Both the position numbers and the translations under genes were made by a program. Shown in pieces: positions 27,821-57,493 of a DNA stretch of 64,000 nucleotides; within the stretch, counting starts at the first letter, position 1; each line of letters begins with the position of its first letter. The notes below the pieces were generated by a model that saw nothing but the letters and a program-made list of their open reading frames with translations, made no database searches and was not told where the DNA came from. The DNA is from a virus: IMG/VR virus record IMGVR_UViG_3300021960_000027, positions 32,001 to 96,000 of that record; one strand, written 5' to 3'.

Positions 27821-27859
27821 TTGAATGAAGGCGGTCATTTAATCAGGCAAAGAACGGTT

Positions 27860-27914
27860 TGCCCAGAGACACAAATCCCCCCCATCGTGTCTCTGGGCAG
27901 ACCAACCAAGGGGG
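27860..27914 (+). promoter_or_regulatory. Hairpin with C7 loop just upstream of dnaE RBS
   Basis: 13-bp perfect stem tgcccagagacac/gtgtctctgggca; loop aaatcccccccatc; GGGGG at 27910-27914. Confidence 0.45.
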
Positions 27915-27918
27915 CGTT

Positions 27919-43490: not shown

Positions 43491-46400
43491 ATGACGGCTA
43501 TTTACTCAAATCTCCGTGCAGGCACGATCACCGATAACCCACTCGGTTCAACTGATACAACAATTAACTCTGCTGAATTTGCAGACCTTCCAGTTGTTGC
43601 TTCCCCCGATTATCTATGGCTAACCCTTGATCCTGAGTCGGCAGTTTCTACTCCAGAAATTGTTAAGGTCACAGCCCACTCTTCTGGGGCAACCTCTGTA
43701 ACAGTTGTTCGTGGCGAGCAAACATCTCTGGGTGGTAACGCATCTCGCTCGCATAGTCAAGATACTCGCTGGGTAGCATCGTGGACTGCCGAAGACGGCG
43801 AGTTGATGCCACACCGTGTTCTTACAGCCAAGGGCGACATTCTCGCGGCAACGGGGGCGAACACGATTGATCGCTTGGGAGTTGGAACCGATGGCTATTT
43901 TCTAAAAGCCGATTCAGGAGAATCGACTGGACTCGTCTGGGGTCAGGTCGATTTCTCTACTGCCAACCTTGATGACCTCGGTGATGTCACGATCACCAGC
44001 GCACAGGCAGGTCAGTTTGTTCAGTGGAATGGCACTGCATGGGTTAATGCGGTCATGCCGTCTGGGGAACCGATTGGTCACCAAGACAAAACTGAAAGCA
44101 CTATTTCTTTCTCAAATTCCACGCGTGTCTTTACGATTGCGCCAGTTTCTTCATCCCATGTTGTTTGGTGCAAGGGCGTTAAGCACACCAAAACCTCTTC
44201 TGAAACTGTAACCATTCCCGATACAACGGGTTTGTACTACGTCTACTACAACGAGTCCGGCACGCTGGGCTACAAAACAACCTATTTTGTCTGGGACACT
44301 GACACCCCAACTGCCTACATTTACTGGAACGCAACAACTGGTGAGGCAGAGTTTTTTGCAGACGAACGTCATGGGATAACTCTTGATTGGCAGACTCACG
44401 AATATCTTCACCGCACACGGGGTGCAGTTATTGCGAGTGGGTTTGGGGCATCAAATTATGTGACAGATGGCAACGGCGGTTCTGACGGACACGCTCAGTT
44501 AGATATTGCCAACGGTACGTTTTTTGATGAAGACCTTCAGGTAGACATCACCCATTCCGCAACTCCCACAGCAAACACTTGGGAGCAGGTTCTTCAGGGC
44601 GCGGCAGAAATTCCCGTCATGTATCAGGTGGGAACAGAATGGCAACTTGATACTGCTACTGAATTCCCAATTAAGGCTGGCACTGCGCTCCCTCGCTACA
44701 ACTCTGTTTCAGGCTCAACGTGGTCGCTCACTGATTTAGGTAATTCTAAGTTTGGTGTTTCGTGGATTGTTGCAACCAACAATCTTAATGAACCTGTTAT
44801 CGCCATCATGGGGCAGGGCGAATACAACAACATTGGTGAGGCAGAAGCAACGACTTGGGAAGAGTTAGACCTAACTGGTTTTCCTGTCTTTGAATTTCGT
44901 GTTTTGTACAAAATCGCTTTTCAGGTTGCATCGGGATACACCAACACAATCAAAGCCGCGATTCGTGGGGTCTACGATTTACGGCGAACAACAGTTGCTG
45001 GAGATTCAATCCCCACTATTCCAGTCGCTGACCACGGTTCCTTAACTGGTCTTGCGGATGACGATCACACTCAGTATCTCAATGAATCTCGCCATGATGC
45101 GTTAGACCACAGCACTGCGCTTGGTTCGGCGGTCGTCAGTGACCTAAGTGATGTTTCATCTACCTCACCCACATCCGGTCAGATTCTTAAGTGGAGTGGC
45201 TCGGACTGGAGTCCGTCTGACATAACACTTGGCACGGAAACAAGTGGTGATTACGTCGAATCTTTGACGGCAGGAACGGGCGTTTCAGTCGGCACCGCAA
45301 CTGGAGAAGGTTCTACCCCAACCATTGCGATTGGTCAGTCGGTAGGTACTACTGACGATGTCACATTTAACACCGTCACTGGAACAAACGGGATCATTAC
45401 GCTTACCACTTCAGGTGCGCCAACATCTTCGCTTTCTGATGGTGCCATCGCCATTGATACATCAAACAACATTTTGTACATCAGGTCTGGTGGAGCATGG
45501 ATTGAGTCATCTGGCGGTGGAGCAAGTGTTTCTGTTTCAGATACCGCTCCATCTTCTCCAGATGTAGGTGACCTGTGGTTTGAGTCGGATACTGGAGACG
45601 TATTCGTTTACTACGACTCAGCGTGGATTGACATTGGCGGTACGTCTGTTGCGAACATTGCCACCTCCGATACCGCCCCCTCTTCTCCAGCCAATGGAGA
45701 CATCTGGTTTGAGACTGATACCGCTAAGACATTCGTATGGTATGACGATGGTTCTAGTCAGCAATGGGTAGAGATTGGCGCGGCAAGTTCGTCTGCTACT
45801 GGTTCTTCTGGTGCGATTCAGTTTGCTAACGGTAACAGTGCGTTCTCCAGCGACGGTGCGAACCTGTTCTGGGACGACACGAACAACCGACTCGGTGTAG
45901 GCACTAACAGCCCTGCTGTTGCGTTGGATGTTGTAGGTACTACTGATACTGATTATTTGACTGTTGGGGGCGAGAACGTCACCCCGTATACGGGTAAGCG
46001 CAACCTTCTTATCAATGGTGCGATGCAGGTTTACCAGCGCGCATCTTCTGGTGATGTCCTTGCCTCTGAGGGTTACAGGTGTGCTGACCGTTGGAAGTCT
46101 TACCGAACTGTAAATGCGGCTGGCACCCTTTCTGTAAACACCACTGATGCCCCCGAAGGGTTCAACAACTCTTTGAACTACGCTTGCACCTCAGCAGAAG
46201 CAACCCCCACTAACGAAACTTTTGTGTCACAAGTTCTTGAGGGTCAAGATGTTCAGCATGTTGGCTACGGGAAATCATGGTGCAAGCAGGTAACCGTTTC
46301 GTTCTGGGTCAAATCAAATGTGACAGGGACATTCAATGTCTGGTTCTTCCGCTGGGACGGAACTCGCCACATTGGTCGTTCCTACACGATCAACTCTGCT

Positions 46401-47009
46401 GACACTTGGGAATACAAGACCGTGCTTGTTCCAGCAGACACATCGAACGCTGTAGCCAACGATAATACTCAGGGCTGGGAGGTACGCTTCTATCTCGCGG
46501 CACAATCAACTTGGACGGGTGGCACCGAGGCTTCAGCGTGGTCTGCTGTTTCCGACAATAACCGCGCCCCCGGTAACGCCAACATTAACTCCAGCACATC
46601 TAACTATTGGCGTGTCACAGGCGTACAGGTTGAGGTTGGTGATAAGGCGACACCGTTTGAACACCGTTCCTTTGGCGAAGAACTTGCCTTGTGTCAAAGG
46701 TACTACTTCAAACCACCACAGCATTATTACAGCACGCTGGCTTACGGAACATGGATTGATTTCAGCGCGTTCCTCCGAGCATCAATGCCGATACCTGTCA
46801 CAATGCGTGCCAACCCCAGCGTCACCTACTCGTCATACTTTGTCTACGGTGCTGGTGGATCACGGACAGGTAGTGGAACAATCTATGTTTATGGACAAGA
46901 TGCAGGGATGCTAGTCCTCGGATTTGGTCATTCTGGTTCAAGTCCGGGTGGCGGGTATGTCGGCACAATCACAGCACCTAGCGGATTTGAGGTGAACGCA
47001 GAATTATGA
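43491..47009 (+). CDS. Long tail fibre protein
   Basis: EIVKVT..VVRG, TAKGDIL, LDDLGDV, DHGSLTGLADDDHTQY, DTAPSSP..GDLWF repeats, NRLGVGT, RNLLING..ELALCQRYY. Confidence 0.85.
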   Translation: MTAIYSNLRAGTITDNPLGSTDTTINSAEFADLPVVASPDYLWLTLDPESAVSTPEIVKVTAHSSGATSVTVVRGEQTSLGGNASRSHSQDTRWVASWTAEDGELMPHRVLTAKGDILAATGANTIDRLGVGTDGYFLKADSGESTGLVWGQVDFSTANLDDLGDVTITSAQAGQFVQWNGTAWVNAVMPSGEPIGHQDKTESTISFSNSTRVFTIAPVSSSHVVWCKGVKHTKTSSETVTIPDTTGLYYVYYNESGTLGYKTTYFVWDTDTPTAYIYWNATTGEAEFFADERHGITLDWQTHEYLHRTRGAVIASGFGASNYVTDGNGGSDGHAQLDIANGTFFDEDLQVDITHSATPTANTWEQVLQGAAEIPVMYQVGTEWQLDTATEFPIKAGTALPRYNSVSGSTWSLTDLGNSKFGVSWIVATNNLNEPVIAIMGQGEYNNIGEAEATTWEELDLTGFPVFEFRVLYKIAFQVASGYTNTIKAAIRGVYDLRRTTVAGDSIPTIPVADHGSLTGLADDDHTQYLNESRHDALDHSTALGSAVVSDLSDVSSTSPTSGQILKWSGSDWSPSDITLGTETSGDYVESLTAGTGVSVGTATGEGSTPTIAIGQSVGTTDDVTFNTVTGTNGIITLTTSGAPTSSLSDGAIAIDTSNNILYIRSGGAWIESSGGGASVSVSDTAPSSPDVGDLWFESDTGDVFVYYDSAWIDIGGTSVANIATSDTAPSSPANGDIWFETDTAKTFVWYDDGSSQQWVEIGAASSSATGSSGAIQFANGNSAFSSDGANLFWDDTNNRLGVGTNSPAVALDVVGTTDTDYLTVGGENVTPYTGKRNLLINGAMQVYQRASSGDVLASEGYRCADRWKSYRTVNAAGTLSVNTTDAPEGFNNSLNYACTSAEATPTNETFVSQVLEGQDVQHVGYGKSWCKQVTVSFWVKSNVTGTFNVWFFRWDGTRHIGRSYTINSADTWEYKTVLVPADTSNAVANDNTQGWEVRFYLAAQSTWTGGTEASAWSAVSDNNRAPGNANINSSTSNYWRVTGVQVEVGDKATPFEHRSFGEELALCQRYYFKPPQHYYSTLAYGTWIDFSAFLRASMPIPVTMRANPSVTYSSYFVYGAGGSRTGSGTIYVYGQDAGMLVLGFGHSGSSPGGGYVGTITAPSGFEVNAEL

Positions 47010-47245
47010 CGACTTATTACACTCAGACAATCACTCAAACAACTGGAGATATCACTGTTGTCTTTGCTGAACTAGATAACGGCGACACTCTTTGCTTTCC
47101 AAACGAATCAGGTAACCCTGATTACGAGGAATACCTTGAGTGGGTCGCTTTAGGTAACACAGCAACGGCGTACACAGTTCCTTCCGTTGACGAGTATTTC
47201 CCCCCATCAGATTCTGAAATCATGTTCACAATGGAGGTCATCTAA
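47006..47245 (+). CDS. Small fibre-associated protein
   Basis: P...NPDYEEYLEWVALGNT motif typical of genes following CQRYY-type fibres. Confidence 0.65.
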   Translation: MTTYYTQTITQTTGDITVVFAELDNGDTLCFPNESGNPDYEEYLEWVALGNTATAYTVPSVDEYFPPSDSEIMFTMEVI

Positions 47246-47604
47246 TGGCAATGACATACAAGAGGCTTGCCGGTCCCCTGACCGCCACAACCTCAACAAC
47301 ATCTATCTACACCGTGCCTCAAAACACTACGACAGTGGTTAAAGAGTTTATGTTGACGAATTACTCTGCTTCTGCCGCGACTATCACCGTGTATGTTAAA
47401 GAAGCCAATGTAACTTTAGGGGACGCTCACATCATCATTTCTGACTTGTCACTTTCGGCAGACGAAACTTTTTCGATGTCGGCCTCGCTTGTTCTACACA
47501 ATGACGGTGGCGTAGCCAGCGCAACGACCTCTGACCAAATTCATGTGGTTGCAAGTGTCGGTAGTGCAATCAACATTGTGATGAACGGAATTGAGGATGC
47601 CTAA
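47245..47604 (+). CDS. Beta-sandwich virion protein
   Basis: IYTVP..TTVVK..LTN..; TAATG coupling. Confidence 0.65.
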   Translation: MAMTYKRLAGPLTATTSTTSIYTVPQNTTTVVKEFMLTNYSASAATITVYVKEANVTLGDAHIIISDLSLSADETFSMSASLVLHNDGGVASATTSDQIHVVASVGSAINIVMNGIEDA

Positions 47605-48380
47605 TGGGAAAGTTCCATCGACGGAACAACCAAGGCCGCGGCAAGCAGTTGTTGTTTCAGACAACAGTATTTCAAGAAGAAATCGTTGAGACTTTAGAGA
47701 CAGCAGATTCTCCTAACCCAATTTACGGGTCGGGTGTGGACGGAAGCATTACCTTAAATGGTTCTTCTTCGGGAACAGATGCGATCACAGGGAGCGGGAC
47801 TTCCTACACTCTTGCTAGAGACTTGTTTTGTAAAAATCTTAGTATCGGTTCTTCCGTACATTTGAATACAAATGGATATCGCGTATTTGTTCAGGGAACT
47901 CTTACCCTGTCTTCCAGTTCCCGAATTGGCTTTACTACCGGACACTCAACCGCTGGTAGTATTCAACAAGGTGGTGCTATCAACACTTCCGTGACACATA
48001 GTTTGGGTGGGGATAGCGCAACTGAAACGGCTACTGATCCAACAACGGCAGAAGGCGGGACTCTTTATTACAAGCAGGCACTTCAGGCGTATCGTGGATA
48101 TTCAATTACTGCCGGTTCAACTTCTCCATCTTTTTTGCGTGGTGGGGCAGGGGGAACTGCCGGTGCGGGGGGTGGAGTAGTGATTATTTGCGCTCGCTAT
48201 ATTGCCCAACGTTCTGGTTCATCTAAAATAGCCGCGCCCGGAACGCAGGGAACTGGTGGGGGTGGCGGTGGAGTAGTTATTATTATTTCTTCTGGTTCTT
48301 CTCTTTCTTCTGGGGTAAATACAGAAGTTGTCGGCGGTACAGGTTGCGGTAATGGAACCGCTATTTACTTACAGGCATAA
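47604..48380 (+). CDS. Glycine-rich virion/fibre protein
   Basis: YGSGVDG..TLARD..NL.I..LNTNGYRVFV.GTLT and GGGVVII motifs; paralogue of next gene. Confidence 0.7.
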   Translation: MGKFHRRNNQGRGKQLLFQTTVFQEEIVETLETADSPNPIYGSGVDGSITLNGSSSGTDAITGSGTSYTLARDLFCKNLSIGSSVHLNTNGYRVFVQGTLTLSSSSRIGFTTGHSTAGSIQQGGAINTSVTHSLGGDSATETATDPTTAEGGTLYYKQALQAYRGYSITAGSTSPSFLRGGAGGTAGAGGGVVIICARYIAQRSGSSKIAAPGTQGTGGGGGGVVIIISSGSSLSSGVNTEVVGGTGCGNGTAIYLQA

Positions 48381-48382
48381 TC

Positions 48383-50260
48383 GTGGCACGCACTAGACGG
48401 TTTAACAGTGTTCTTCGTAAATTGGAGAAGGCCGCGTCTGAGGGCACGACAGTTAATGATTGGTTGTTTGGTTCTGGAGAGCATGGTGATGTGACCGTCG
48501 CTAACGGTCAAACCGTCACACTGGATTCTGACAAATACTATGAGAATCTGACTGTAAATTCTGGGGGAACGCTGTTTACTAACGGCTTCCGTGTATTTGT
48601 CAACGGCACACTGACAAACAATGGTACTATCGGCTTTCCCTCTGGCTCTGCTGATGTTACAACAAACCCATCAAGCATTTCTCGCCGTAGCCATACTGCG
48701 GTCAGTTACGGAATTGGTGAGGCTTCTAATACCGTAACTGAAGGAGAGTTATATGATTTAGATGACGTTATTGGTGGCTATTACATAACAGCGTCTGGTT
48801 CTATTCGCGGTCTTCAAGGTGGCGACCCCGGTACAGACGGGTCTGATGGAAGCATTACGGCTAACGCAACAGCAGGTAATGCCGGTAGTGCTGGTACTTA
48901 TCCGGGTGCCGCGGTGGGTGCCCCCGGCGGTGCAGGCAATCCCGGTACGTCAGGTAACGCGGCAACGGCTGGTACTGCTGGAGGTAGGGGAGCCGGTGGG
49001 GGAGTTGTACTCATCATTGCCCGTACGGTTACTGGTTCTGGAGAAATTGTTAGTTTTGGTACGGCGGGAACAAGCGGTAATGTTGCGACGCAAGGTACTG
49101 ACGGCTCGGATGGGACTTCTGCCCCCAATATCGCGGCGTATGCAAACCCCGGAAATACCCACACTTCCGGTCACAATGCTGGTTCTGGATCACACCCAGC
49201 AAACAGTCTTGTACCCAACTTGAGTCACAATGCTACGGCGTACAGTGCTGGACATAACGCGGGTCACGGGCATCACCCCGCTAACGGTCCGCATGGAAAC
49301 ACTGGTCATAACGCGACGGCGCATGCGAACGGACATAACGCTGGACATGGTCATCATCCCGCTGGCGGTCCGCATGGTAACCACGGACATCACGCCAGCA
49401 CAACTCGGTCAAACCACCACCACCATGTTCAAAACCATCATCATGTTCGATCAAATCACCATCACCACACGCAAACCAACCATCACCACCACACCGACTC
49501 TCACCATCACACGCGATCAAACCACCACCACCACACCCGAACAAACCATCACCACACCGTAGGACCAGTTCGTTCTAACAGCCATCATCACTTTAGGTCG
49601 AACTACCACTCAGGAAACCACAGGTCTAACCACCATTTCCACGGGCGATCAAACCACCATCATCACCATCACACTCAGTCGAATCACCACCACCACACCC
49701 AAACAAACCATCACCACCATGTTCAAAACCATCATCATGTTCGATCAAATCACCATCACCACACTCAGACAAATCACCACCACCACACCGATTCTCACCA
49801 CCACACGCGAACGAATCATCACCACCACACGGCTGGCGACGCAGGTCACCCCGCAAACGGAGCAATGGCTCCAAATCACCACGCCTCGGTGAACTACGCA
49901 CATAACTCTGGTACTACAGCCCACCCCGCTGGCGGTTCGCTCGCTCCTAACCACAGTGCCTCGGCTCATCCCGCTGGTCATAATGCCGGTAACGCAAACC
50001 ACGCGGCAAATGGAACTCTTACCACAAATCACAATGCTTCATCGCACCCCGCAGGGCACAACGTCACTCACAACCCAAATTATTCAGGAGGTTCTGGGGG
50101 AGGGAAAGGCACTGGTGGAACTGCTACTGATGGCAACGCTGGCAACCAAGGACAAAAGGGTGCTATTATTGTTGTGACCAGACAAATGGACTCTAATGTC
50201 CGCTCGGCTCAGTTGGGCAACCACTCCAACTATGCCAGAATTATAGATGTGGATGGATAG
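48383..50260 (+). CDS. Glycine-rich virion/fibre protein with a very large histidine-rich insertion
   Basis: Same FGSG..NLTV..TNGFRVFV.GTLT and GGGVVLII motifs as upstream paralogue, plus GHNAG repeats and (S/T)NHHHH core. Confidence 0.8.
   Translation: MARTRRFNSVLRKLEKAASEGTTVNDWLFGSGEHGDVTVANGQTVTLDSDKYYENLTVNSGGTLFTNGFRVFVNGTLTNNGTIGFPSGSADVTTNPSSISRRSHTAVSYGIGEASNTVTEGELYDLDDVIGGYYITASGSIRGLQGGDPGTDGSDGSITANATAGNAGSAGTYPGAAVGAPGGAGNPGTSGNAATAGTAGGRGAGGGVVLIIARTVTGSGEIVSFGTAGTSGNVATQGTDGSDGTSAPNIAAYANPGNTHTSGHNAGSGSHPANSLVPNLSHNATAYSAGHNAGHGHHPANGPHGNTGHNATAHANGHNAGHGHHPAGGPHGNHGHHASTTRSNHHHHVQNHHHVRSNHHHHTQTNHHHHTDSHHHTRSNHHHHTRTNHHHTVGPVRSNSHHHFRSNYHSGNHRSNHHFHGRSNHHHHHHTQSNHHHHTQTNHHHHVQNHHHVRSNHHHHTQTNHHHHTDSHHHTRTNHHHHTAGDAGHPANGAMAPNHHASVNYAHNSGTTAHPAGGSLAPNHSASAHPAGHNAGNANHAANGTLTTNHNASSHPAGHNVTHNPNYSGGSGGGKGTGGTATDGNAGNQGQKGAIIVVTRQMDSNVRSAQLGNHSNYARIIDVDG
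49412..49810 (+). repeat. 105-bp direct repeat (49412-49516 and 49706-49810) in the poly-His core
   Basis: Both copies encode identical NHHHHVQNHHHVRSNHHHHTQTNHHHHTDSHHHTR with synonymous differences. Confidence 0.9.
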
Positions 50261-50267
50261 GTGAATT

Positions 50268-50510
50268 ATGTTTGAAAGCATGTCAACTGAAGACAAGATC
50301 GCTTTGTGTGATGAGCAAGTATCTCAAGTAGATCGTAACATCTACTCTTATATGCTCACCCTCGGATTAGACCCAGATGCTGGAGACGCTACAGCAGTGA
50401 CCGTTGATTCTTCCGAATCAGATTATGTACAGAGTCTTCAGCAAAGCATTATTGATGCTGTTGCTCGGCGTGCATTTATTGTCGGAATTAAAACTGCTCT
50501 TAGTGCGTGA
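50268..50510 (+). CDS. Small acidic helical protein
   Basis: AGGTG RBS; in operon. Confidence 0.65.
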   Translation: MFESMSTEDKIALCDEQVSQVDRNIYSYMLTLGLDPDAGDATAVTVDSSESDYVQSLQQSIIDAVARRAFIVGIKTALSA

Positions 50511-50692
50511 TGTTGTCAGACAGCAGTCCAACACATAAGTTGTATGCTTGCTGTTTGATGGCTGGAGTTAATCCATCTTCTCTGACTAAAGAGTGGATAA
50601 TGACAGCACCTGAGGGAACCGTACAGTACGACTTAGAAATATTTCTTCAAATTGCATTGAATGAGTTTCAGTCTGATAATCTAAATACCTAA
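50507..50692 (+). CDS. Small hypothetical protein
   Basis: GTGA and TAATG coupling on either side. Confidence 0.55.
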   Translation: MMLSDSSPTHKLYACCLMAGVNPSSLTKEWIMTAPEGTVQYDLEIFLQIALNEFQSDNLNT

Positions 50693-51396
50693 TGGCCTGC
50701 CCAACTTTTCATTTTGCTGGTCACCGCAGTAACTACATTTTGATCGGTGACGATGTGGTTGATGCAGACGTATGCGATGACATTATCTCAAGATGTTTAG
50801 CCAACTATGATGATTTCTTTTACCCCGGACCGACTTTAGGTGGGGTAGACGTTGCTACAAAATCTAGTATGGATTTTGATTTTGGGGTAGATTCTGTTGT
50901 TAGCAAAGGTTTTGATCCAGAGCCGTGGGCGACGTACGAATCAATTATGAGTAATGCCCTCACTACAATTATTAGTGAGTATCAGTCTAGTTTTTTTGAT
51001 CTTTGGCGAGTGCCTAATTTAGTGGACACCGGATTCCGTCTTCAGCATTACGCAAAAAATTACGGTTACTACAGGGAACACATTGACGGTTGTGTTTGGG
51101 GACCAGTTTCTTCTCGTACAAGAATCTTTGGTGTAGTAATTTATTTAAATGACATTGATTCTGGTGGGGAAACACATTTTCCCATTCAAGAAGAGAAGGT
51201 GCAGGCAAGGGCGGGTCGGATTGCATTGTTTCCTGCCGCGTGGACACATCCTCACGCCGGTCTTCCTGCACATAGTAGTGACAAGTGGATGATTAGTTCA
51301 TTTATCACATGCACTCCAGACGATGACTATTTAGAGTATGATATTGAATCTGGAGAAATGAAGTCCCCCAATAATCAGTCAGGAGATGATGCGTGA
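50692..51396 (+). CDS. 2OG-Fe(II) oxygenase (prolyl-4-hydroxylase-like)
   Basis: EHID..VIYLND..GGETHF..FPA.WTHPHAG..KW. Confidence 0.9.
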   Translation: MACPTFHFAGHRSNYILIGDDVVDADVCDDIISRCLANYDDFFYPGPTLGGVDVATKSSMDFDFGVDSVVSKGFDPEPWATYESIMSNALTTIISEYQSSFFDLWRVPNLVDTGFRLQHYAKNYGYYREHIDGCVWGPVSSRTRIFGVVIYLNDIDSGGETHFPIQEEKVQARAGRIALFPAAWTHPHAGLPAHSSDKWMISSFITCTPDDDYLEYDIESGEMKSPNNQSGDDA

Positions 51397-52007
51397 AAAA
51401 GGGAGAGGCAGTAGGGGTAGAGGTAGCACCTTGCATTGTCGTTTATGAAGATGTGTTTGATGCCACCATTTTTTTGCGTACTCTTGTTCAAGAATGTGAA
51501 AACGAAGAAGGTTTTCTTAATTGGACAAGAGACACTGTAGGTGATGGAGAAGTAACTGATAAGCGAACTTCTATGAGTTGTAGCATCGATAACTTGCGTG
51601 ATGCAGAAGAATATTCAGAGACGCTTAACGAAAATACAAAATTGTTGATTGATGAGTGGATGCAAATTTTCCCCAAAATTGACGACGTAGTTTGGTCATA
51701 CCGCAGTTCCTACGACCTTCCTTTGCGCGGAGATCAGGGATACCGAGTTTTGCGTTACCGAGGTGGCGAAGAATATCAAGCCCATCACGACCACGGTCCG
51801 GGTAACAACAGGGTTCTCAGCATCGTTGCTTTTATTAACGATGGATACACGGGGGGCGAACTGGTATTTCCTACCTTTGATGTAACCGTGACTCCTAAGG
51901 CGGGGAGTGTTGTTGCCTTTCCGTCTAACTTCCCCTACAAGCACATTGCTAAACCTGTAGGCGAGGATGGTTCGGCTAAGTATTCGCTTGTTTCGTGGTT
52001 TGAGTGA
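51393..52007 (+). CDS. 2OG-Fe(II) oxygenase (prolyl-4-hydroxylase-like)
   Basis: LRY..Y.AHHD..RVLS..INDGYTGGELVF..FPSNFPYKH..PV..KYSLVSW. Confidence 0.9.
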   Translation: MKKGEAVGVEVAPCIVVYEDVFDATIFLRTLVQECENEEGFLNWTRDTVGDGEVTDKRTSMSCSIDNLRDAEEYSETLNENTKLLIDEWMQIFPKIDDVVWSYRSSYDLPLRGDQGYRVLRYRGGEEYQAHHDHGPGNNRVLSIVAFINDGYTGGELVFPTFDVTVTPKAGSVVAFPSNFPYKHIAKPVGEDGSAKYSLVSWFE

Positions 52008-53515
52008 TGCATAAGCACATTGTAATTGTTGGCTCAGGAACCGCCGGACTAACCACTGCCATTAGCCTCAAGTCGTGGTTTCAAATGTACGACATTACCG
52101 TTGTGTCGTCTAAGAACATTGGCATCATTGGGGTTGGAGAAGGTTCTACTGAGCATTGGCGCGGTTTTCAAAATGACATGGATATTCCCATTGAAGGGTT
52201 GCTGACTAAATCAAAGGCAACCCATAAATACGGGATTGCGTTTGAAAATTGGACAACTCACACCCCTCATTACTACCACTCTGTTTCTCACGGTCCAATT
52301 ACTATCGGTAACTTTGCGGGTTCTTACGCCTACTGCATTGAGAACGATTTGCAACTGACTAAGACTCTTTCTTGGCGGGGCATGAAAGACGGCAAGATTC
52401 CTTATAGCGAAGACAAGGAAGGCAACGAAAATACTCATCTTAATACCAACCAATATCACTTTGATACACACGCTCTTAACGATTTTTTGAAAGTAATTGC
52501 TGTTGAACGCGGTGTGTACTTTGTTGAGGATGAAGTTGACTTTGTTGTCAAGGACGAAGAAGGTTGGGTTGACTCTCTTTATTTGAAGAGGGCTAGGGGC
52601 AGAATTAAAGCCGATCTATTTATTGACGCTTCAGGCTTTAATCGTGTGCTTTTAAAAGAGATGGACGACCAAACGTTTGTCGATTACGGAAAATATTTAC
52701 CTTGCGATAGTGCAGTAGTTTTTCCAACTCCCTCGCGCGAAGATGGAAAAATCCTTCCTTTTACTCGTTCTCGCGCCTTAAGTTCTGGATGGCTGTGGGA
52801 GATTCCGACTCAAGAACGTAGGGGAAATGGATACGTCTATTCTTCTAAGTACATTTCTGACGATGAAGCACAGAAAGAGGCGTTTGACGCGGCGGGCTAT
52901 GAGTCTGAAGAAAGCCGTATCCTTCGGTTTGAATCTGGTTACATGAAAAAGACTTGGCAAAAGAACGTTGTGGCAGTTGGCTTGTCTTCTGGTTTTATTG
53001 AACCTTTGGAGGCAACATCTATTTCTATGTCGCTACAGCAGGCTCGCTTAATTGCTTCCTATTTACCGACGTTTAATAAAGAGTCGCGATTCATGGTGGA
53101 TGAGTACCATCGACTTATGGATCAAATTATGGAAAACACTTTGTCCATGATTTCTCTCCACTACATTTCTGACCGTACGGACTCTGAGATGTGGAGAGAT
53201 CAGCAGAACGCCCCCAAGCCAGAACTGTTAGAACGGCTTTTAGGGTTGTGGGCAGAACGTTGCCCAGAGATTCACGACATGCCCCATTCTGGATTTGAGT
53301 TATTTAATCCTGTACACTTGTGGCATGTAGCGCAAGGTCAAGGTTTGATTGATAAAGACTTAGCCACTATGCAACTGGATGCCTACGGTTCTCGCGGTCC
53401 ATCTCGTCAGCATATTAATCAGGTAACTGCCGAGTATATGAGGGGAGATATCGTTGACCACCGAGAAGCACTCCAGCGACTTGCCGAACGATTTGAAGAT
53501 AGTCAGTCCAAGTAG
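52004..53515 (+). CDS. Tryptophan-halogenase-family flavin-dependent halogenase
   Basis: GSGTAG, IGVGEGS, ATHKYGI (catalytic Lys position), FIDASGF, WLWEIP (WxWxIP), GFIEPLEATSI. Confidence 0.9.
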   Translation: MMHKHIVIVGSGTAGLTTAISLKSWFQMYDITVVSSKNIGIIGVGEGSTEHWRGFQNDMDIPIEGLLTKSKATHKYGIAFENWTTHTPHYYHSVSHGPITIGNFAGSYAYCIENDLQLTKTLSWRGMKDGKIPYSEDKEGNENTHLNTNQYHFDTHALNDFLKVIAVERGVYFVEDEVDFVVKDEEGWVDSLYLKRARGRIKADLFIDASGFNRVLLKEMDDQTFVDYGKYLPCDSAVVFPTPSREDGKILPFTRSRALSSGWLWEIPTQERRGNGYVYSSKYISDDEAQKEAFDAAGYESEESRILRFESGYMKKTWQKNVVAVGLSSGFIEPLEATSISMSLQQARLIASYLPTFNKESRFMVDEYHRLMDQIMENTLSMISLHYISDRTDSEMWRDQQNAPKPELLERLLGLWAERCPEIHDMPHSGFELFNPVHLWHVAQGQGLIDKDLATMQLDAYGSRGPSRQHINQVTAEYMRGDIVDHREALQRLAERFEDSQSK

Positions 53516-54305
53516 TATTCACGAAATTCAGCCGAAACCGGGGCAGGTGTTTATGGCACCTCAGACTCCCATTTTGTTTCACGAAAAGTCGTTACCCATT
53601 AACAACACCCGCTCATGGCCTGACTGGTGGAAAGAAGTCGATTCGACTGAGGGAAGTGTCCGACGCTGTGCTGGAACGGCTGATTACATCAGCCTTGGTT
53701 TGACGATTCCGTTGTGGGCTAACCTCAAACTGCGCCCTTCCCCTAACAAGCGTCAGTGGGAGTCACAATTCGATATTGCTGGTGACCACCCATTCAGTGT
53801 TGAGGGTTTTAGTTTTGAGCAAACTGGGGCGATTCCTGTCACTGAGGTGCGCGGCATTAAGCGTGCAAACTATGTCAAGATCATTAATCCGTGGGTTATT
53901 AAGACTGCTCCCGGTTGGTCTTGCATGTTTCTTCCTGACATGTATCAGCCAGACCCTAATTGGACGATTCTTCCGGCGGTAGTCAACACGGATTATTACC
54001 ATCATGCCCATATTGTTATTAATGTTTTAGCCGAGGACGAGTTCACTATTCCTGTGGGCTATCCGATGCAACACATCATCCCGTTTGAACGATCCACTAC
54101 AGGCATTGAGATGCAATATGGTGATCGAAATGCGTATGAGATCATGGATCAGGCAGGGTTCGGCACTCCATTTATCCCGCGCAACATGAAATCTAAGTAC
54201 AAGAAGACTCAGCGTGAAATGGATGCTGGTGTTGAAAAGTGTCCTGTTGTTGGTCATACAGAAAAAGTAAAAAAACAGCGCAGGTGGTTCAGCAAGAATA
54301 AATAG
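53454..54305 (+). CDS. Hypothetical beta-barrel/cupin-like protein of the type found next to phage oxygenase clusters
   Basis: PDWWK..VRRCAG..KIINPWVIKTAPGWSCMF..LPAVVNTD..IPF.R; start uncertain. Confidence 0.6.
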   Translation: MTTEKHSSDLPNDLKIVSPSSIHEIQPKPGQVFMAPQTPILFHEKSLPINNTRSWPDWWKEVDSTEGSVRRCAGTADYISLGLTIPLWANLKLRPSPNKRQWESQFDIAGDHPFSVEGFSFEQTGAIPVTEVRGIKRANYVKIINPWVIKTAPGWSCMFLPDMYQPDPNWTILPAVVNTDYYHHAHIVINVLAEDEFTIPVGYPMQHIIPFERSTTGIEMQYGDRNAYEIMDQAGFGTPFIPRNMKSKYKKTQREMDAGVEKCPVVGHTEKVKKQRRWFSKNK

Positions 54306-54345: not shown

Positions 54346-55719
54346 ATGGCTATTGATTTCCCAAATTCCCCATCGACTAATGACACCTACACGGTCAATG
54401 GGCGCACCTATATCTGGAATGGCGAGAAATGGTTGAGGGCACAGCCCGAACTGACCTCGGTCGTCCCCACCCTGACGGTGTCGAATGACCTAACTGTAGA
54501 CACAGACACTCTGCATGTCGATTCTACGAATAATCGTGTCGGTATCGGCACGACTAGTCCTAGCCAAACATTAGATGTTGTCGGCAAACTAGATGTGAGC
54601 GACGATGTTGACATTGGTGGAGGCAACTTTGGCTACCGATTGAACGCGACCGCAGACGATTCTTATGTGGCGCACCTTGGTTCAAACTCACCGACCGCAA
54701 AGATTGACATGTTTTCTGCGGATAGCACTAATTTGTATGTTGCTACCGCTGGCGTACATTTGGACATACCTAGTTTCGACCCGCTTTTGGGTGAGTCGGC
54801 TGAACCAACTCTTAGTATCAAATTCACTGACACCACCGCAGTCAGGATCAAAAAAGTAGGAAGCACGTTCGACACCAGCCTGCTCAACGGTAATGTCGGT
54901 ATCGGCACAACCAGCCCTAGTCATACTCTTGATGTGAACGGCAAAGCCGTTGTCGGTGGCGGTGACAACCAAACTCCCGATGCGTCTGGTAATGGTCACC
55001 TAATGATTGACGGCTCTGGGTACACAGGGTTTGCTTCCCTTGATGGTACAGCGATGTGGGTTGGTCACAACTCTGGCTCTCGCAAGTTGTATCTGGCTAC
55101 TGATGAGACCGCCCGTCTCACCGTTGACGGTACTGGCAATGTCGGTATCAATGACACCACGCCGTCGTACACGTTGGATGTCAACGGAGACATCAACACG
55201 ACAAGTAAGTATTTGAGAGGCGGTAAGGCGACGGGTGACACTCTGCTGGCTAGTGGTTCGTTTAGTTCTACGGGCGTTGCAATCACCAGCGTGTTCTCTA
55301 GCAGTTATGCAAACTACAGGATTTTGCTGACAGTCAAGAACAGTAACTCTGGTGAACTTTACTATCGAATGATGAACGGAGGGACTTGGTACACCTCTTC
55401 GGTCTACGAGATTCAAAGATTGTACGCTCAGGGAACTTCTGTTGGTGGCACCCGAACGCAAGCGAACAGTTATGGTCGGGTTGGTTACATGGGTGGGGGC
55501 TACTGGTCATCTGCTGAAATGACCATTTACAACCCGTACATAACTAGAGAAACGGATGTTGCTTCGCATGAAGTGTACGGCGACAACGCTTACAAGGGGA
55601 TGATTGAAGTAGATCACTCACAGGTTGGGACTTCAACTTCTTTTGATGGCATCTTTATCGGAGCCGCGGCAGGAGGAACTATGTACGGTTCCTATCGTGT
55701 GTATGGGATAGCGCAATGA
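54346..55719 (+). CDS. Tail fibre / receptor-binding protein
   Basis: MAIDFPNSP N-terminus; repeated (N/R)VGIGTTSP..LDV. Confidence 0.8.
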   Translation: MAIDFPNSPSTNDTYTVNGRTYIWNGEKWLRAQPELTSVVPTLTVSNDLTVDTDTLHVDSTNNRVGIGTTSPSQTLDVVGKLDVSDDVDIGGGNFGYRLNATADDSYVAHLGSNSPTAKIDMFSADSTNLYVATAGVHLDIPSFDPLLGESAEPTLSIKFTDTTAVRIKKVGSTFDTSLLNGNVGIGTTSPSHTLDVNGKAVVGGGDNQTPDASGNGHLMIDGSGYTGFASLDGTAMWVGHNSGSRKLYLATDETARLTVDGTGNVGINDTTPSYTLDVNGDINTTSKYLRGGKATGDTLLASGSFSSTGVAITSVFSSSYANYRILLTVKNSNSGELYYRMMNGGTWYTSSVYEIQRLYAQGTSVGGTRTQANSYGRVGYMGGGYWSSAEMTIYNPYITRETDVASHEVYGDNAYKGMIEVDHSQVGTSTSFDGIFIGAAAGGTMYGSYRVYGIAQ

Positions 55720-55994
55720 TGAAACACATTCACAATGTTGAAACTGGCGAAGAGTACGACATTGAATTTACCGAAGAAGAGATTGCGTCGCTAGATGCTT
55801 TGCAGAATGAATCAGCACGAATAACTGCCAAAGAGAAAAGAGACATGCTTCTGAAAGACTCAGACTGGCGTGTTCTTCCCCACTCTCCATCAGATGTTGA
55901 AGCGTGGGCTGTTTACCGTCAACAGTTGCGTGATCTCCCATCTGACCCTGCTTGGCCTTATGTTGAGTTCCCTGATCCACCGGAGGCTAACTAA
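55716..55994 (+). CDS. Tail fibre assembly chaperone
   Basis: RDMLLKDSDW..W..YRQQLRDLP..WP...P.PP. Confidence 0.85.
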   Translation: MMKHIHNVETGEEYDIEFTEEEIASLDALQNESARITAKEKRDMLLKDSDWRVLPHSPSDVEAWAVYRQQLRDLPSDPAWPYVEFPDPPEAN

Positions 55995-57493
55995 TGGCTA
56001 TCAACTTTCCTGATTCCCCCTCCGTAAACGACACCCATACAGTTGGTGACAAGACTTGGACTTGGGACGGTACTGCTTGGAACGTAGTTGTTGGGGGCAT
56101 CCCCACAACCATCAATGAACTTACAATCACAAACGACCTGACAGTTGATACAAACACCCTTTATGTCGATTCTACAAACAACCGGCTTGGTATCGGTACA
56201 ACCAGCCCTGCGACGACATTAGACGTTGAAGGTGCAATCGAAGGTCACGCGATCAGCGCATCTACAGATGCGGTTCTTAACCTGAAGGCATCATACGCGC
56301 AACTCCAGTTAACAGACACCGACGACAGCACCTACATCCATTACTCGTATAGTGGTGGCGTACTTCGCCATCGCTACAACAGTTACAACGCAAATGAGTT
56401 CCTCACGCTTGACGCAGTGAATGGGAGGGTCGGTATCGGTACAACCAACCCTGCAACGACTTTGGAAGTAGCCGGTGCCGCGGCTCATATCCGTATTACT
56501 GACTCGGATACTGCTGGCACTACTGGTATTGATTTTTACGACAGCAACGGCACGGCAGATGTTGAGTTGGAGGTTGGTAACTCTACTCAGTATTTTGCGA
56601 TCAAAACCGCTGGTTCTGAGGCGATGCGTATTGATTCGTCGGGCAATGTCGGTATCGGTACAACCAGTCCAAATCAGAAACTTGATGTTGATGGCAACCT
56701 TGCTGTTCGTGGCAAAATGGTCACAGGATTATCCACATTCACCCAAGAACCGTGGGCTAACTCAACTATTGCTCTAGGTAACTACGGGTTCGTTGGGACA
56801 GAAGGTTCCTATGGGACATCGCTGGTGTGGAACTGGGAACGTGGTACAGATTCTGGTTACTACAGTTTGGGTGTCAACTCGTACACTTCCGCGGCTGGTA
56901 TCCACATGCGTAACGATGGTATTCGTTTCCAGTTTGATTCGTCATGGGGTGCTACATCGGAACCCACGACCAGAATGCAGGTGCTTGCGACTGGAGTCAA
57001 CATACTCACACAGGTACAGAGTCAGCGAATACTTCCGTTTTCAGATAACACATACAACTTGGGCGACGGGGTTTTGAGGTGGGCAAATATATACGGTGCC
57101 ACCGGGTCAGTAAATAGTTCAGACATTAGGGATAAGACAGACATTTTGGATTTGGATTACGGTCTTGAGTTTATTCAAAGTCTTAGACCTGTCAAATACC
57201 GATTTGATGACAGAGATGCTGAAGCACCCGGAGTTAGAACACACATGGGTTTCATTGCTCAAGAAGTTGCCGAGGCAATGGGTCAAGAGGCAACAAACAG
57301 AGGTGTTTGGACAAGTACGCTAAATTCTGTTTTGGAAACGACAGATGAAGAAGGAAACACTATAACCATCACAAGAGATCGTCAGGGTTTGCGTTACTCC
57401 GAGTTCATCGCCCCCATAGTGAAGTCTGTACAAGAGTTGTCGTCTATGGTTGCCACTTTGACTGCCCGTATTGAAGCGTTAGAGACTAACTAA
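55994..57493 (+). CDS. Tail fibre with C-terminal intramolecular chaperone (peptidase S74)
   Basis: MAINFPDSP; GIGTT.P repeats; SSDIRDKTDI..LRPVKY..GFIAQEV..LRYSEFIAPIVKSVQEL. Confidence 0.9.
   Translation: MAINFPDSPSVNDTHTVGDKTWTWDGTAWNVVVGGIPTTINELTITNDLTVDTNTLYVDSTNNRLGIGTTSPATTLDVEGAIEGHAISASTDAVLNLKASYAQLQLTDTDDSTYIHYSYSGGVLRHRYNSYNANEFLTLDAVNGRVGIGTTNPATTLEVAGAAAHIRITDSDTAGTTGIDFYDSNGTADVELEVGNSTQYFAIKTAGSEAMRIDSSGNVGIGTTSPNQKLDVDGNLAVRGKMVTGLSTFTQEPWANSTIALGNYGFVGTEGSYGTSLVWNWERGTDSGYYSLGVNSYTSAAGIHMRNDGIRFQFDSSWGATSEPTTRMQVLATGVNILTQVQSQRILPFSDNTYNLGDGVLRWANIYGATGSVNSSDIRDKTDILDLDYGLEFIQSLRPVKYRFDDRDAEAPGVRTHMGFIAQEVAEAMGQEATNRGVWTSTLNSVLETTDEEGNTITITRDRQGLRYSEFIAPIVKSVQELSSMVATLTARIEALETN

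What the first reader, a model, noticed from the sequence alone, without database searches (positions are those of the whole stretch)
48383..50260. The His array is a symmetric out-and-back insertion into a Gly-rich domain whose insert-free paralogue is next door
Seen: in the upstream paralogue, GGGVVIICAR is followed ~25 aa later by GGGVVIIIS. Here GGGVVLIIAR and KGAIIVVT are ~390 aa apart. The insert is nested: Gly/Thr spacer, ~27-aa GHNAG..HPA repeats, His core, ~26-aa HPA..GHNA repeats, Gly spacer. The core (49406-49828) has 65 His in 141 aa by hand count, in mostly 6- and 8-residue units, with an irregular aromatic centre (GPVRSNSHHHFRSNYHSGNH). Known: the T4 gp37 tip is a trimeric hairpin needle with Fe ions held by HxH motifs. 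Inferred: a much longer antiparallel needle binding many metal ions, with the centre as its tip.
Basis: partly seen in the sequence, partly recalled or inferred. Interest (0 to 1): 0.75.

Follow-up and report, generated by a model that had tools for sequence, protein, structure and literature searches.

The report
Fold-back poly-histidine stalk on phage fibre protein
A tail-fibre-region protein of an uncultured 118-kb estuarine or marine phage carries a 378-residue, one-quarter-histidine projection whose two halves change length together in related phages, so the chain probably runs out to a tip and folds back as a two-armed, probably metal-binding stalk.

Summary
ORF 48383-50260 encodes 625 aa with 100 His. 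Of these, 97 lie in a 378-aa insert between two scaffold strands that are about 22 aa apart in the adjacent 258-aa paralogue. The core has 65 His in 141 aa.

The sequence "symmetry" comes from direct repeats, including a 127-nt duplication at 91% identity. It is not a mirrored sequence.

The protein belongs to a large, unnamed viral family: 151 protein hits and 260 IMG/VR stretches. In this family His is confined to the insert.

Close relatives show mirror-placed indels of equal length in the two halves. The nearest relative has +27/+26 aa in the arms and +3/+4 aa beside the centre. This supports an out-and-back, register-locked stalk with its tip near residues 397-413. The insert is under strong purifying selection.

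AlphaFold models the scaffold confidently as a beta-solenoid-like fold but not the insert. Trimer formation, metal binding and presence in the virion remain untested.

The gene always follows its paralogue (80 of 80 loci). It usually precedes 2OG-Fe(II) oxygenase and halogenase genes, inside a tail-fibre block.

This scan has noted the same family before on other genomes, with concordant follow-ups.

The parts
47245..47604 (+). 119-aa conserved small ORF that opens the module
   Evidence: phrog_1276, unknown function, E=7.9e-7. A homologue lies just upstream of the paralogue in 69 of 80 related IMG/VR loci.
47604..48380 (+). 258-aa insert-free paralogue: the scaffold alone, with the two anchor strands ~22 aa apart
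   Evidence: Motif positions. Paralogy: E=3e-9 and 1.4e-7. A homologue sits directly upstream of the His protein in 80 of 80 loci. No Pfam family. The nearest ESM Atlas clusters are all viral hypothetical proteins.
48383..50260 (+). His-rich protein, 625 aa, GTG start, 100 His
   Evidence: The N-terminus matches homologues (P0001 87% identical, L004 78%).
48383..49024 (+). Scaffold, N-terminal part (aa 1-214), ending in the strand GGGVVLIIAR
   Evidence: AlphaFold2 pLDDT is mostly above 90 for aa 30-90 and 150-250. Structure search gives beta-solenoid-like matches of Z 5-6.5 only.
49025..49405 (+). Outward arm (aa 215-341): Gly/Thr spacer followed by 27-aa GHNAGHGHHPA-type repeats
   Evidence: 81-nt repeat spacing. 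19 His in 127 aa. The relative L004 has one extra 27-aa unit here.
49406..49828 (+). Poly-His core: 65 His in 141 aa, in NHHHH(T/V)x(T/S)-type units of 6-8 aa. It holds two direct 127-nt copies (49410-49536 and 49704-49830)
   Evidence: CAC:CAT is 44:21. Amino-acid identity to L004 is 82% while synonymous sites are saturated.
49562..49621 (+). Irregular aromatic centre (aa 394-413), the inferred fold-back tip
   Evidence: The mirror-placed indel pairs against L004 put the centre at about aa 397-409. The best His-His mirror centres are 402-413.5. The geometric midpoint of the insert is aa 403.5.
49829..50155 (+). Returning arm (aa 483-591): 26-aa HPA..GHNA repeats followed by a Gly spacer
   Evidence: 78-nt repeat spacing. 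L004 has one extra 26-aa unit here.
50156..50260 (+). Scaffold, C-terminal part (aa 592-625): strand KGAIIVVTR and the conserved tail ..GNHSNYARIIDVDG
   Evidence: pLDDT 83-98. The C-terminal motif is conserved across the family.
50692..52007 (+). Two 2OG-Fe(II) oxygenase genes (234 and 204 aa) that travel with the His gene
   Evidence: PF13640, E=8.5e-11 and 5.6e-14. Homologues occur in 60 and 75 of 80 related loci.
52004..53515 (+). Flavin-dependent (tryptophan-type) halogenase homologue, 503 aa
   Evidence: PF04820, E=6.6e-104. A homologue occurs in 70 of 80 related loci.
53454..54305 (+). 283-aa conserved partner of unknown function
   Evidence: phrog_7084, E=7.3e-23. A homologue occurs in 66 of 80 loci.
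43491..47009 (+). Upstream 1172-aa tail-fibre gene (context)
   Evidence: phrog_4492 tail fiber protein, E=2.1e-48.
54346..57493 (+). Two downstream tail-fibre / tail-spike-like genes (457 and 499 aa; context)
   Evidence: phrog_9942, phrog_4636 and other tail families, E down to 1.1e-26.

Best explanation
The gene encodes a tail-fibre-module protein. It has a small single-chain, beta-solenoid-like scaffold, the same domain as the neighbouring 258-aa paralogue. Between two successive scaffold strands a 378-residue excursion leaves and returns.

The excursion is a two-armed stalk. An outward arm (Gly/Thr spacer, then 27-aa His/Asn/Gly/Pro repeats, then NHHHH units) runs to a tip around residues 397-413. 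A returning arm (NHHHH units, then 26-aa repeats, then a Gly spacer) lies antiparallel to it, in register.

Register is maintained by selection, so length changes are accepted only when both arms change equally. The stalk is therefore a projection of adjustable length.

Histidine is confined to the stalk: 97 His and 32 HxH dyads. Most probably these His side chains coordinate metal ions that staple the two arms, and perhaps several chains, together. The aromatic, irregular centre would then be presented as the distal, host-facing tip.

Shown here: the insertion, the family, the His partition, the mirrored length co-variation, purifying selection and the conserved gene neighbourhood.

Inferred: physical arm pairing, metal binding, presence in the virion, and any action of the neighbouring oxygenases and halogenase on the stalk.
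For: 1. Insertion into a folded scaffold. AlphaFold2 (40-sequence alignment) models residues ~30-260 and ~565-625 together with pLDDT mostly above 90. This includes strands 208-217 and 594-602, which flank the insert. The paralogue has the two strands ~22 aa apart.

2. Mirrored indels in the nearest relative. L004 is an independent contig, 78% identical over residues 1-340. It differs by +27 aa in the outward arm, +26 aa in the returning arm, and +3/+4 aa on either side of the centre.

3. Mirrored indels across the family.
- Sample: 34 quasi-independent close pairs drawn from 160 unique family proteins.
- Of 11 pairs with exactly two gaps of >=2 aa, 10 have gaps of the same sign and identical length. 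Of these 10, 7 have (p1+p2)/length between 0.95 and 1.05 and 9 lie within 0.95-1.13.
- Position shuffling for gaps >=3 aa gave 14 mirror-matched gaps against 3.95+-2.67 expected (P=0.002).
- The translational, direct-repeat control was not significant (8 against 4.55, P=0.18).

4. Short-insert relatives. The outward (GHNPG-type) and returning (HPGNPFHYS-type) repeats are different sequences whose copy numbers rise and fall together (alignment). Spearman 0.90 over 42 sequences, not corrected for phylogeny.

5. Position of the centre. The indel pairs give aa ~397-409, the His-His mirror score peaks at 402-413.5, and the geometric midpoint is 403.5.

6. Selection. Against L004 the insert is 86% identical in protein but 74% in DNA, with synonymous sites saturated and dN 0.096. 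The N-terminal scaffold has dN 0.184 and dS 1.77.

7. His is a property of the insert. Median insert His is 13.7%, and 134 of 160 members are >=10%, against a scaffold median of 0.7%. The window protein is the highest at 25.7%.

8. Context. Tail-fibre PHROG families lie on both sides. Paralogue, oxygenases, halogenase and phrog_7084 homologues are present in 80, 60/75, 70 and 66 of 80 related loci.

9. Precedent. In T4 gp37 the collar D10 is made of residues 811-881 plus 1010-1026, with the needle between them. Seven iron atoms are held by His along the trimer (passages of PMC6957217; PMC11705849).
Against: - AlphaFold2 gives no confident structure for the insert, either here (pLDDT ~35 for residues 263-559) or in a 370-aa relative with a 160-aa insert (pLDDT ~35 for 216-320).
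- Several close pairs have unmatched indels away from the centre: P0147/P0152 16 aa; P0008/P0122 13 aa; P0019/P0126 30 aa against 2; P0018/P0020 9 aa; L007/P0006 74 aa. Arm matching is therefore a strong tendency, not a rule, and some subfamilies may be built differently.
- With all gaps >=2 aa the excess is smaller: 44 matched of 107 against 22+-5 expected.
- The 34 pairs are not fully independent. For example P0050/P0053 and P0054/P0065 probably share one event.
- A test for mirrored hydrophobic patches failed: mean r 0.02, and 1 of 55 representatives had z>2.
- No Pfam or PDB sequence match and no specific fold match links the protein to gp37.
- No relative exists in 50,697 cultured-phage records. 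There is therefore no virion proteomics, and virion location is inferred from neighbours only.
- Of 9 long proteins carrying the scaffold domain at their C-terminus, only 1 hit a tail-fibre PHROG and 1 hit an O-acetyltransferase.
Confidence: 0.6

Rival explanations
1. The insert forms a gp37-type homotrimeric, six-stranded interwoven needle, with a column of Fe ions each held octahedrally by three HxH dyads on the three-fold axis.
For: - There are 32 HxH dyads in the insert.
- The out-and-back topology resembles gp37 collar D10 plus needle D11.
- His/Gly/Asn/Ser/Thr-rich composition.
- Tail-fibre gene context.
- Mirrored indels fit any antiparallel model, including this one.
Against: - No Pfam or PDB sequence similarity to gp37, and no gp37 needle among the structure matches obtained with the whole-protein model, whose insert is low-confidence.
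- The scaffold folds confidently as a single-chain solenoid rather than as an interdigitated trimer.
- HHHH runs put His on both faces of a strand, far more than an axial column needs.
- Short-insert relatives pair an HxH-type outward repeat with a single-His returning repeat. That suggests within-chain 3-His sites as readily as axial 6-His sites.
Confidence: 0.2
2. The insert is an intrinsically disordered, His-rich low-complexity loop with no fixed arm pairing. It would act as a flexible metal-, pH- or polyanion-responsive tether.
For: - pLDDT is ~35 across the insert in two AlphaFold2 runs.
- Low-complexity composition: only 19 Ile/Leu/Val/Met residues in the 378-aa insert (8 + 6 + 5 across the outward arm, core and returning arm).
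- Insert length varies from 99 to 874 aa in the family.
- The hydrophobic mirror test was negative.
Against: - Equal-length, mirror-placed indels in 10 of 11 two-gap pairs, with position P=0.002, are not expected for an unconstrained loop.
- The insert sequence is more conserved (86% aa) than the N-terminal scaffold (76% aa) while synonymous sites are saturated.
- The repeat types of the two arms differ yet keep matched copy numbers.
Confidence: 0.13
3. The protein is not a virion part. It serves the neighbouring enzymes inside the infected cell, for example as their substrate scaffold or as a metal store or chaperone for the Fe(II)-dependent oxygenases.
For: - Oxygenase and halogenase homologues accompany the gene in 75 and 70 of 80 loci.
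- His-rich proteins serve as metal stores in other systems (recalled, not tested here).
- Only 1 of 9 long proteins with the scaffold domain hit a tail-fibre PHROG.
Against: - The module lies between tail-fibre genes on both sides here. It follows fibre-like genes in other loci: 24 of 80 hit the 1172-aa fibre, and fibre-like N-termini were seen.
- The scaffold resembles adhesin and tailspike beta-helices, though only weakly (Z 5-6.5).
- Members with few His (L062, 2.8%) keep the same enzyme neighbours, so the link is not to metal storage as such.
Confidence: 0.06
4. Assembly artefact or neutral repeat expansion without function.
For: - The core holds a 127-nt direct repeat.
- Short-read contigs break there, and one 69.7-kb contig of run X4 skips 294 nt between the copies.
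Against: - Contigs of run X1 tile the whole ORF with no differences, including a 301-nt contig across the unique centre. X1 may be the source sample.
- An independent relative, L004, has the same two-copy core and centre.
- The two copies differ at 9% of sites.
- Purifying selection.
Confidence: 0.01

Closest known systems
Needle of the phage T4 long-tail-fibre tip protein gp37 (collar D10 plus needle D11; Bartual et al. 2010, not held here, known through passages of PMC6957217 and PMC11705849)
   Same: - The chain leaves a base domain, runs to a distal receptor-binding tip and returns. D10 is made of residues 811-881 plus 1010-1026.
- His dyads (HxH) line the shaft and bind metal, with seven Fe in gp37.
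- Tail-fibre gene context.
   Different: - No sequence or profile similarity, and no gp37 needle among the fold matches.
- The base is a single-chain beta-solenoid-like domain, not the gp12-type collar.
- The excursion is about three times longer (378 aa against ~128 aa).
- His content is far higher: 97 His, with HHHH runs.
- Trimer formation and Fe binding are untested.
- The arms are built from tandem repeats whose number varies.
HxH 'iron-binding' tail fibres of marine phages (Ferrojan/Trojan Horse hypothesis; Alteromonas phage R22Y gp12, PMC11705849)
   Same: An aquatic phage, a fibre-module protein and repeated HxH motifs proposed to bind metal (passages).
   Different: - R22Y has six HxH motifs in a predicted trimeric fibre shaft. 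Here there are 32 HxH dyads and poly-His runs in an insert of a different scaffold.
- Metal binding is inferred in both cases and measured in neither.
Cyanomyovirus neighbourhoods with a tryptophan-type halogenase and a 2OG-Fe(II) oxygenase (e.g. P-SSM2, NC_006883.2)
   Same: Halogenase homologues (~33% identity, 57 phage records) lie next to a 2OG-Fe(II) oxygenase and genes annotated 'tail fiber protein assembly' in P-SSM2.
   Different: The 7 neighbouring proteins I translated in P-SSM2 are not His-rich (0-1.2% His). No cultured phage record encodes the scaffold family. PMC1079782 (passage) regarded the P-SSM2 halogenase as probably a non-functional transient gene.
Beta-helix adhesins, bactofilin and tailspikes (structure level only)
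   Same: The scaffold model aligns with adhesin and autotransporter beta-helices, bactofilin and the CBA120 tailspike at Z 5.3-6.5. It aligns with the S16 gp37-gp38 tip complex at Z 4.9.
   Different: All Z values are below 8, the range the tool calls a 'common arrangement'. Foldseek found nothing at E<=1e-3. There is no sequence relationship.

Membership tests
T4 gp37-type receptor-binding needle | Sequence or profile homology to the gp37 C-terminal region | tested here: not met
   No Pfam family at E<=0.01 for the whole protein. For residues 1-256 only a sub-threshold collagen hit appeared at E<=5. The PDB sequence search with the family profile gave two chance-level hits (E 0.15 and 0.54), neither gp37. 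The insert alone gave 0 hits at E<=10.
T4 gp37-type receptor-binding needle | Excursion that leaves and re-enters one base domain (out-and-back chain path) | tested here: met
   The scaffold is modelled from residues ~30-260 plus ~565-625. Mirror-placed, equal-length indels occur in the two halves.
T4 gp37-type receptor-binding needle | Repeated HxH dyads along the shaft | tested here: met
   32 overlapping HxH dyads in the insert and 0 in the scaffold.
T4 gp37-type receptor-binding needle | Similar three-dimensional fold of the needle | tested here: inconclusive
   The insert is modelled at pLDDT ~35, so it cannot be compared. The gp37 needle is not among the Foldseek or VIA rows, which does not exclude it.
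T4 gp37-type receptor-binding needle | Homotrimer with axial Fe ions | not testable with these tools
   Needs native mass spectrometry or SEC-MALS, ICP-MS and a structure.
Collagen triple-helix repeat (PF01391) | Pfam score above the gathering threshold (27.2 bits) | tested here: not met
   10.8 bits, E=0.43, for residues 226-244. A few relatives carry precomputed PF01391 hits, and some databases name His-poor relatives 'collagen-like protein'.
Unnamed viral family 'beta-solenoid scaffold with variable insert' (this report) | Conserved N-domain (..DxYYxNLTV..TLFTNGFR..), two anchor strands and a conserved C-terminal tail | tested here: met
   151 proteins at E<=1e-3, the best at 3.6e-123. 260 IMG/VR stretches were confirmed by tblastn. 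Anchors were located by HMM in 160 unique proteins.
Unnamed viral family 'beta-solenoid scaffold with variable insert' (this report) | Gene pair with an insert-free paralogue directly upstream, and oxygenase and halogenase genes nearby | tested here: met
   Window gene order. Paralogue in 80 of 80 loci, oxygenase B in 75 of 80, halogenase in 70 of 80 and the 283-aa partner in 66 of 80. Several of the 80 loci are near-identical to each other, and some are cut by contig ends.
Right-handed beta-helix adhesin / tailspike fold | Significant structural match covering the domain | tested here: inconclusive
   Best VIA Z is 6.5 (4wa0_A; rmsd 2.7 over 103 residues), within the tool's stated background range. 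Foldseek gave no hit at E<=1e-3.

The most novel reading that the evidence does not exclude
The stalk is a new kind of phage surface structure. It would be a single-chain, metal-zipped poly-histidine hairpin whose length is tuned by matched repeat gain and loss. It would also be the natural protein substrate of the co-inherited prolyl-hydroxylase-type 2OG-Fe(II) oxygenases and the viral flavin halogenase. That would give these long-puzzling phage enzymes a function in building a modified, host-facing fibre tip.
Probability: 0.25. Interest if true: 0.85.

Novelty: new variant of a known kind. Interest (0 to 1): 0.68.

Why it matters
1. It adds an uncharacterised, widespread family to the repertoire of phage host-contact structures. 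The evidence is 151 protein hits and 260 stretches in viral contigs, with no Pfam name, no solved relative and no cultured member.

2. The design principle was so far known only from T4 gp37: an out-and-back, His-lined projection. Here it is pushed to an extreme of 97 His in 378 residues.

3. The mirror-matched indels show the fold-back architecture from sequence alone. They also suggest that stalk length is an evolvable trait.

4. If the His residues bind metal, each particle could carry many more metal ions than the HxH fibres discussed for marine iron cycling.

5. The constant company of oxygenase and halogenase genes makes the stalk a concrete candidate substrate for viral halogenases, whose natural substrates are unknown.

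My literature searches found no description of this family.

Tried and rejected
- Trimer prediction. Three copies of residues 250-575 with four Fe(II), using alignment A1, gave 'no answer' (score 0.00, mark 0.42; controls not run). This is no evidence either way.
- AlphaFold2 on the whole protein and on the short relative P0090 gave no confident insert structure, so the needle fold could not be compared.
- Foldseek against the PDB gave nothing at E<=1e-3. VIA wide search gave only generic beta-solenoid rows, Z<=6.5.
- PDB sequence searches gave nothing useful.
- Pfam gave no family. PHROG gave only phrog_13336 'unknown function', E=5.8e-4, on residues 29-84.
- Cultured phages: megablast of 47245-51400 and tblastn of the paralogue and of residues 1-256 found no match in 50,697 records.
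- Mirrored hydrophobic-patch test: negative (mean r 0.02; 1 of 55 with z>2; best centres spread over 0.30-0.70). I had expected paired knobs after seeing two hydrophobic patches in P0002 and P0009. This did not generalise.
- Long proteins with the scaffold domain at the C-terminus. Of 9 scanned against PHROGs, 1 hit tail fibre, 1 hit O-acetyltransferase, 2 hit families of unknown function and 5 hit nothing. This gives no clear support for a fibre-tip role.
- Source names are only 'hypothetical protein' or 'collagen-like protein'.
- Sequencing runs: no RNA holder is listed, so nothing can be said on expression.
- The 294-nt skip in one X4 contig may be a real in-frame deletion between the 127-nt repeats or an assembler collapse (53 nt fit both sides). 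I could not decide between these.
- Rejected idea: the 26-27-aa repeats as full rungs of a beta-solenoid. Many mirrored indels are only 2-14 aa.
- Supplementary files of papers were not consulted. They could hold virion proteomics of cyanophages with halogenase neighbourhoods.
- Bartual et al. 2010 (PMC2996694) is not held. What I say of gp37 comes from passages in PMC6957217 and PMC11705849.
- Biomaterial and metal-store analogies (His-rich jaw and beak proteins, Hpn, HRP2) are recalled only and were not used as evidence.
Full report
WHAT IS THERE

The window is bases 32001-96000 of a 117,937-bp IMG/VR virus record with direct terminal repeats, rated 100% complete. ORF 48383-50260 (+, GTG start) encodes 625 aa with 100 His.

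- 65 His in the 141 aa encoded by 49406-49828.
- GGGVVLIIAR at aa 205 and KGAIIVVT at aa 592.
- The irregular centre at aa 394-413.
- In the upstream 258-aa ORF, GGGVVIICAR at aa 189 and GGGVVIIIS at aa 221.

The two proteins are paralogues over the N-terminal domain (E=3e-9; E=1.4e-7 over query residues 50-220). His is confined to the 378 residues between the two strands: 97 His and 32 HxH dyads there, against 3 His and no HxH in the other 247 residues.

HOW THE 'SYMMETRY' IS BUILT

At DNA level the two sides are direct repeats, not mirror images.
- A 127-nt block (49410-49536) recurs at 49704-49830 with 91% identity.
- The flanking repeats have 81-nt spacing before the core and 78-nt spacing after it.
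- One repeat family has copies in both arms.
- Core units are 6-8 aa.

His codons are mixed (CAC:CAT 44:21 in the core).

FAMILY

Residues 1-240 find 151 proteins at E<=1e-3 among candidates of 343-1094 aa (120 listed). A scan of IMG/VR found 260 confirmed stretches, of which 80 loci were kept.

No source gives a name other than 'hypothetical' or, for His-poor members, 'collagen-like'. There is no Pfam family. The only PHROG hit is a weak one of unknown function. No PDB sequence relative exists, and there is no relative in 50,697 cultured-phage records.

Using HMM anchors I delimited the insert in 160 unique proteins.
- Insert length is 99-874 aa, median 246.
- Median insert His is 13.7%; 134 of 160 are >=10% and 2 of 160 are <2%.
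- Median scaffold His is 0.7%.
- The window protein is the most His-rich at 25.7%.

This sample is biased towards relatives that share words with the query.

An exhaustive phmmer search with the paralogue found 122 representatives at E<=1e-3.

STRUCTURE PREDICTION

AlphaFold2 with 40 sequences models residues ~30-260 and ~565-625 confidently (pLDDT mostly above 90). The insert 263-559 is left at ~35. A short relative, P0090 with 37 sequences, behaves the same way.

The scaffold resembles beta-solenoids only generically (VIA Z<=6.5; Foldseek nothing at E<=1e-3).

THE KEY NEW EVIDENCE: MIRRORED INDELS

The closest relative is L004, an independent 44-kb contig that is 78% identical over residues 1-340. 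It has the same paralogue plus His-protein pair, with 689 aa and 108 His. Against the window protein it has one extra 27-aa repeat in the first arm and one extra 26-aa repeat in the second arm. It also has 3 and 4 extra residues on either side of the centre.

I then aligned all insert pairs with >=55% identity and chose 34 quasi-independent pairs.
- Among the 11 pairs with exactly two gaps, 10 have gaps of the same sign and identical length, and 7 of these 10 have positions summing to 0.95-1.05 of the insert length (9 of 10 to 0.95-1.13).
- Multi-gap pairs show palindromic series, for example +5,-5 | -5,+5 and 3,2 | 2,3.
- Shuffling gap positions (gaps >=3 aa) gives 14 matched against 3.95+-2.67 (P=0.002). 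A direct-repeat control is not significant (P=0.18).
- With all gaps >=2 aa the excess is 44 against 22+-5.

In short-insert relatives the outward repeat (GHNPG-type) and the returning repeat (HPGNPFHYS-type) are different sequences, yet their copy numbers track each other. Spearman is 0.90 over 42 sequences, uncorrected for phylogeny.

Exceptions exist and are listed in the Against line. They include 13-, 16-, 30- and 74-aa one-sided indels.

A test for mirrored hydrophobic patches was negative.

The centre implied by the indel pairs is aa ~397-409. The His mirror score peaks at 402-413.5, and the geometric midpoint is 403.5.

SELECTION AND REALITY

Against L004 the insert is 86% identical in protein and 74% in DNA, with saturated synonymous sites and dN 0.096. 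The N-terminal scaffold has dN 0.184 and dS 1.77.

Contigs of run X1, possibly the source sample, tile the ORF without differences, including the unique centre. A 69.7-kb contig of run X4 joins 49417 to 49712, skipping 294 nt (98 codons) between the two 127-nt copies. This is either a natural in-frame deletion or an assembler collapse. If it is real, one recombination between the copies would shorten both arms at once and leave a single His block as the new tip.

CONTEXT

Upstream lies a 1172-aa tail-fibre gene (phrog_4492), and downstream lie two fibre or spike-like genes.

Homologues of the window's neighbouring genes occur in the 80 related loci as follows:
- paralogue: 80 loci
- 119-aa ORF: 69 loci
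- the two PF13640 oxygenases: 60 and 75 loci
- PF04820 halogenase: 70 loci
- 283-aa phrog_7084 protein: 66 loci

Several loci are redundant or cut by contig ends. His-poor members such as L062 keep the enzymes.

Cultured cyanophages carry ~33%-identical halogenases (57 records). The P-SSM2 neighbourhood, however, has no member of this family.

INTERPRETATION

The insertion and the fold-back topology are well supported. Metal stapling is the most economical reading of a conserved, insert-restricted His load with HxH dyads, by analogy with gp37 (passages), but it is unmeasured.

The specific gp37-type trimeric Fe needle is one possibility (0.2). A single-chain hairpin stapled by within-chain His sites fits the single-chain scaffold at least as well.

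Virion location is inferred from neighbours only.

COMPARISON WITH EARLIER SCAN NOTES

After reaching these conclusions I looked up the scan's notes. The same family has been reported on several other genomes. Follow-ups there independently describe length-matched, mirror-ordered arms and the oxygenase and halogenase company. They agree with this report but are not independent experimental evidence.

VERDICT

- Observation: confirmed.
- Novelty: a new variant of the out-and-back His-lined fibre principle, in an undescribed family.
- Interest: 0.68.

Noticed in passing
window 49417-49712: A 69.7-kb contig of run X4 skips exactly 294 nt (98 codons, in frame) between the two 127-nt direct repeats of the His core. 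No X4 contig covers the skipped centre. This is either a natural deletion variant or an assembler collapse (53 nt fit both sides).
   Followed up: partly
window 50692-54305, and L004-L083: The cassette of two PF13640 (prolyl-hydroxylase-type) 2OG-Fe(II) oxygenases, a PF04820 halogenase and a phrog_7084 protein follows the His gene in most related loci (60-75 of 80). It is kept even where the insert has few His (L062, 2.8%). The Gly-X-Y/NPG-rich arm bases would be plausible hydroxylase targets.
   Followed up: partly
short-insert relatives P0088, P0090, L079 and others (alignment A2, columns ~430-460): Many short-insert relatives have a Cys-x(8-10)-Cys pair, often with a third Cys, exactly at the inferred tip. 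The window protein has no Cys there, only an aromatic irregular centre.
   Followed up: no
P0198, P0205, P0223, P0225, P0267: The paralogue-type scaffold domain also occurs as the C-terminal ~220 aa of proteins of 700-1764 aa. One of these is fused to an O-antigen acetylase-type acyltransferase (P0205), and one has tail-fibre PHROG hits (P0252).
   Followed up: partly
window 40375-42789: An 804-aa protein after the large terminase gene has an N-terminal GNAT acetyltransferase domain (PF00583, E=1e-6) and no PHROG family.
   Followed up: no
window 27859-31560: The replicative polymerase is a 1233-aa DnaE-type (Pol III alpha) enzyme. It is only ~33% identical to the nearest cultured-phage homologues (Moorella, Rossellomorea and Mycobacterium phages), so the phage is remote from cultured lineages.
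   Followed up: no
L084 (P-SSM2, NC_006883.2: 173637-177714): In P-SSM2 the halogenase lies between genes annotated 'L-shaped tail fiber protein assembly' and a 2OG-Fe(II) oxygenase. The halogenase-oxygenase-fibre association therefore also exists in a cultured cyanophage that lacks the His family.
   Followed up: partly
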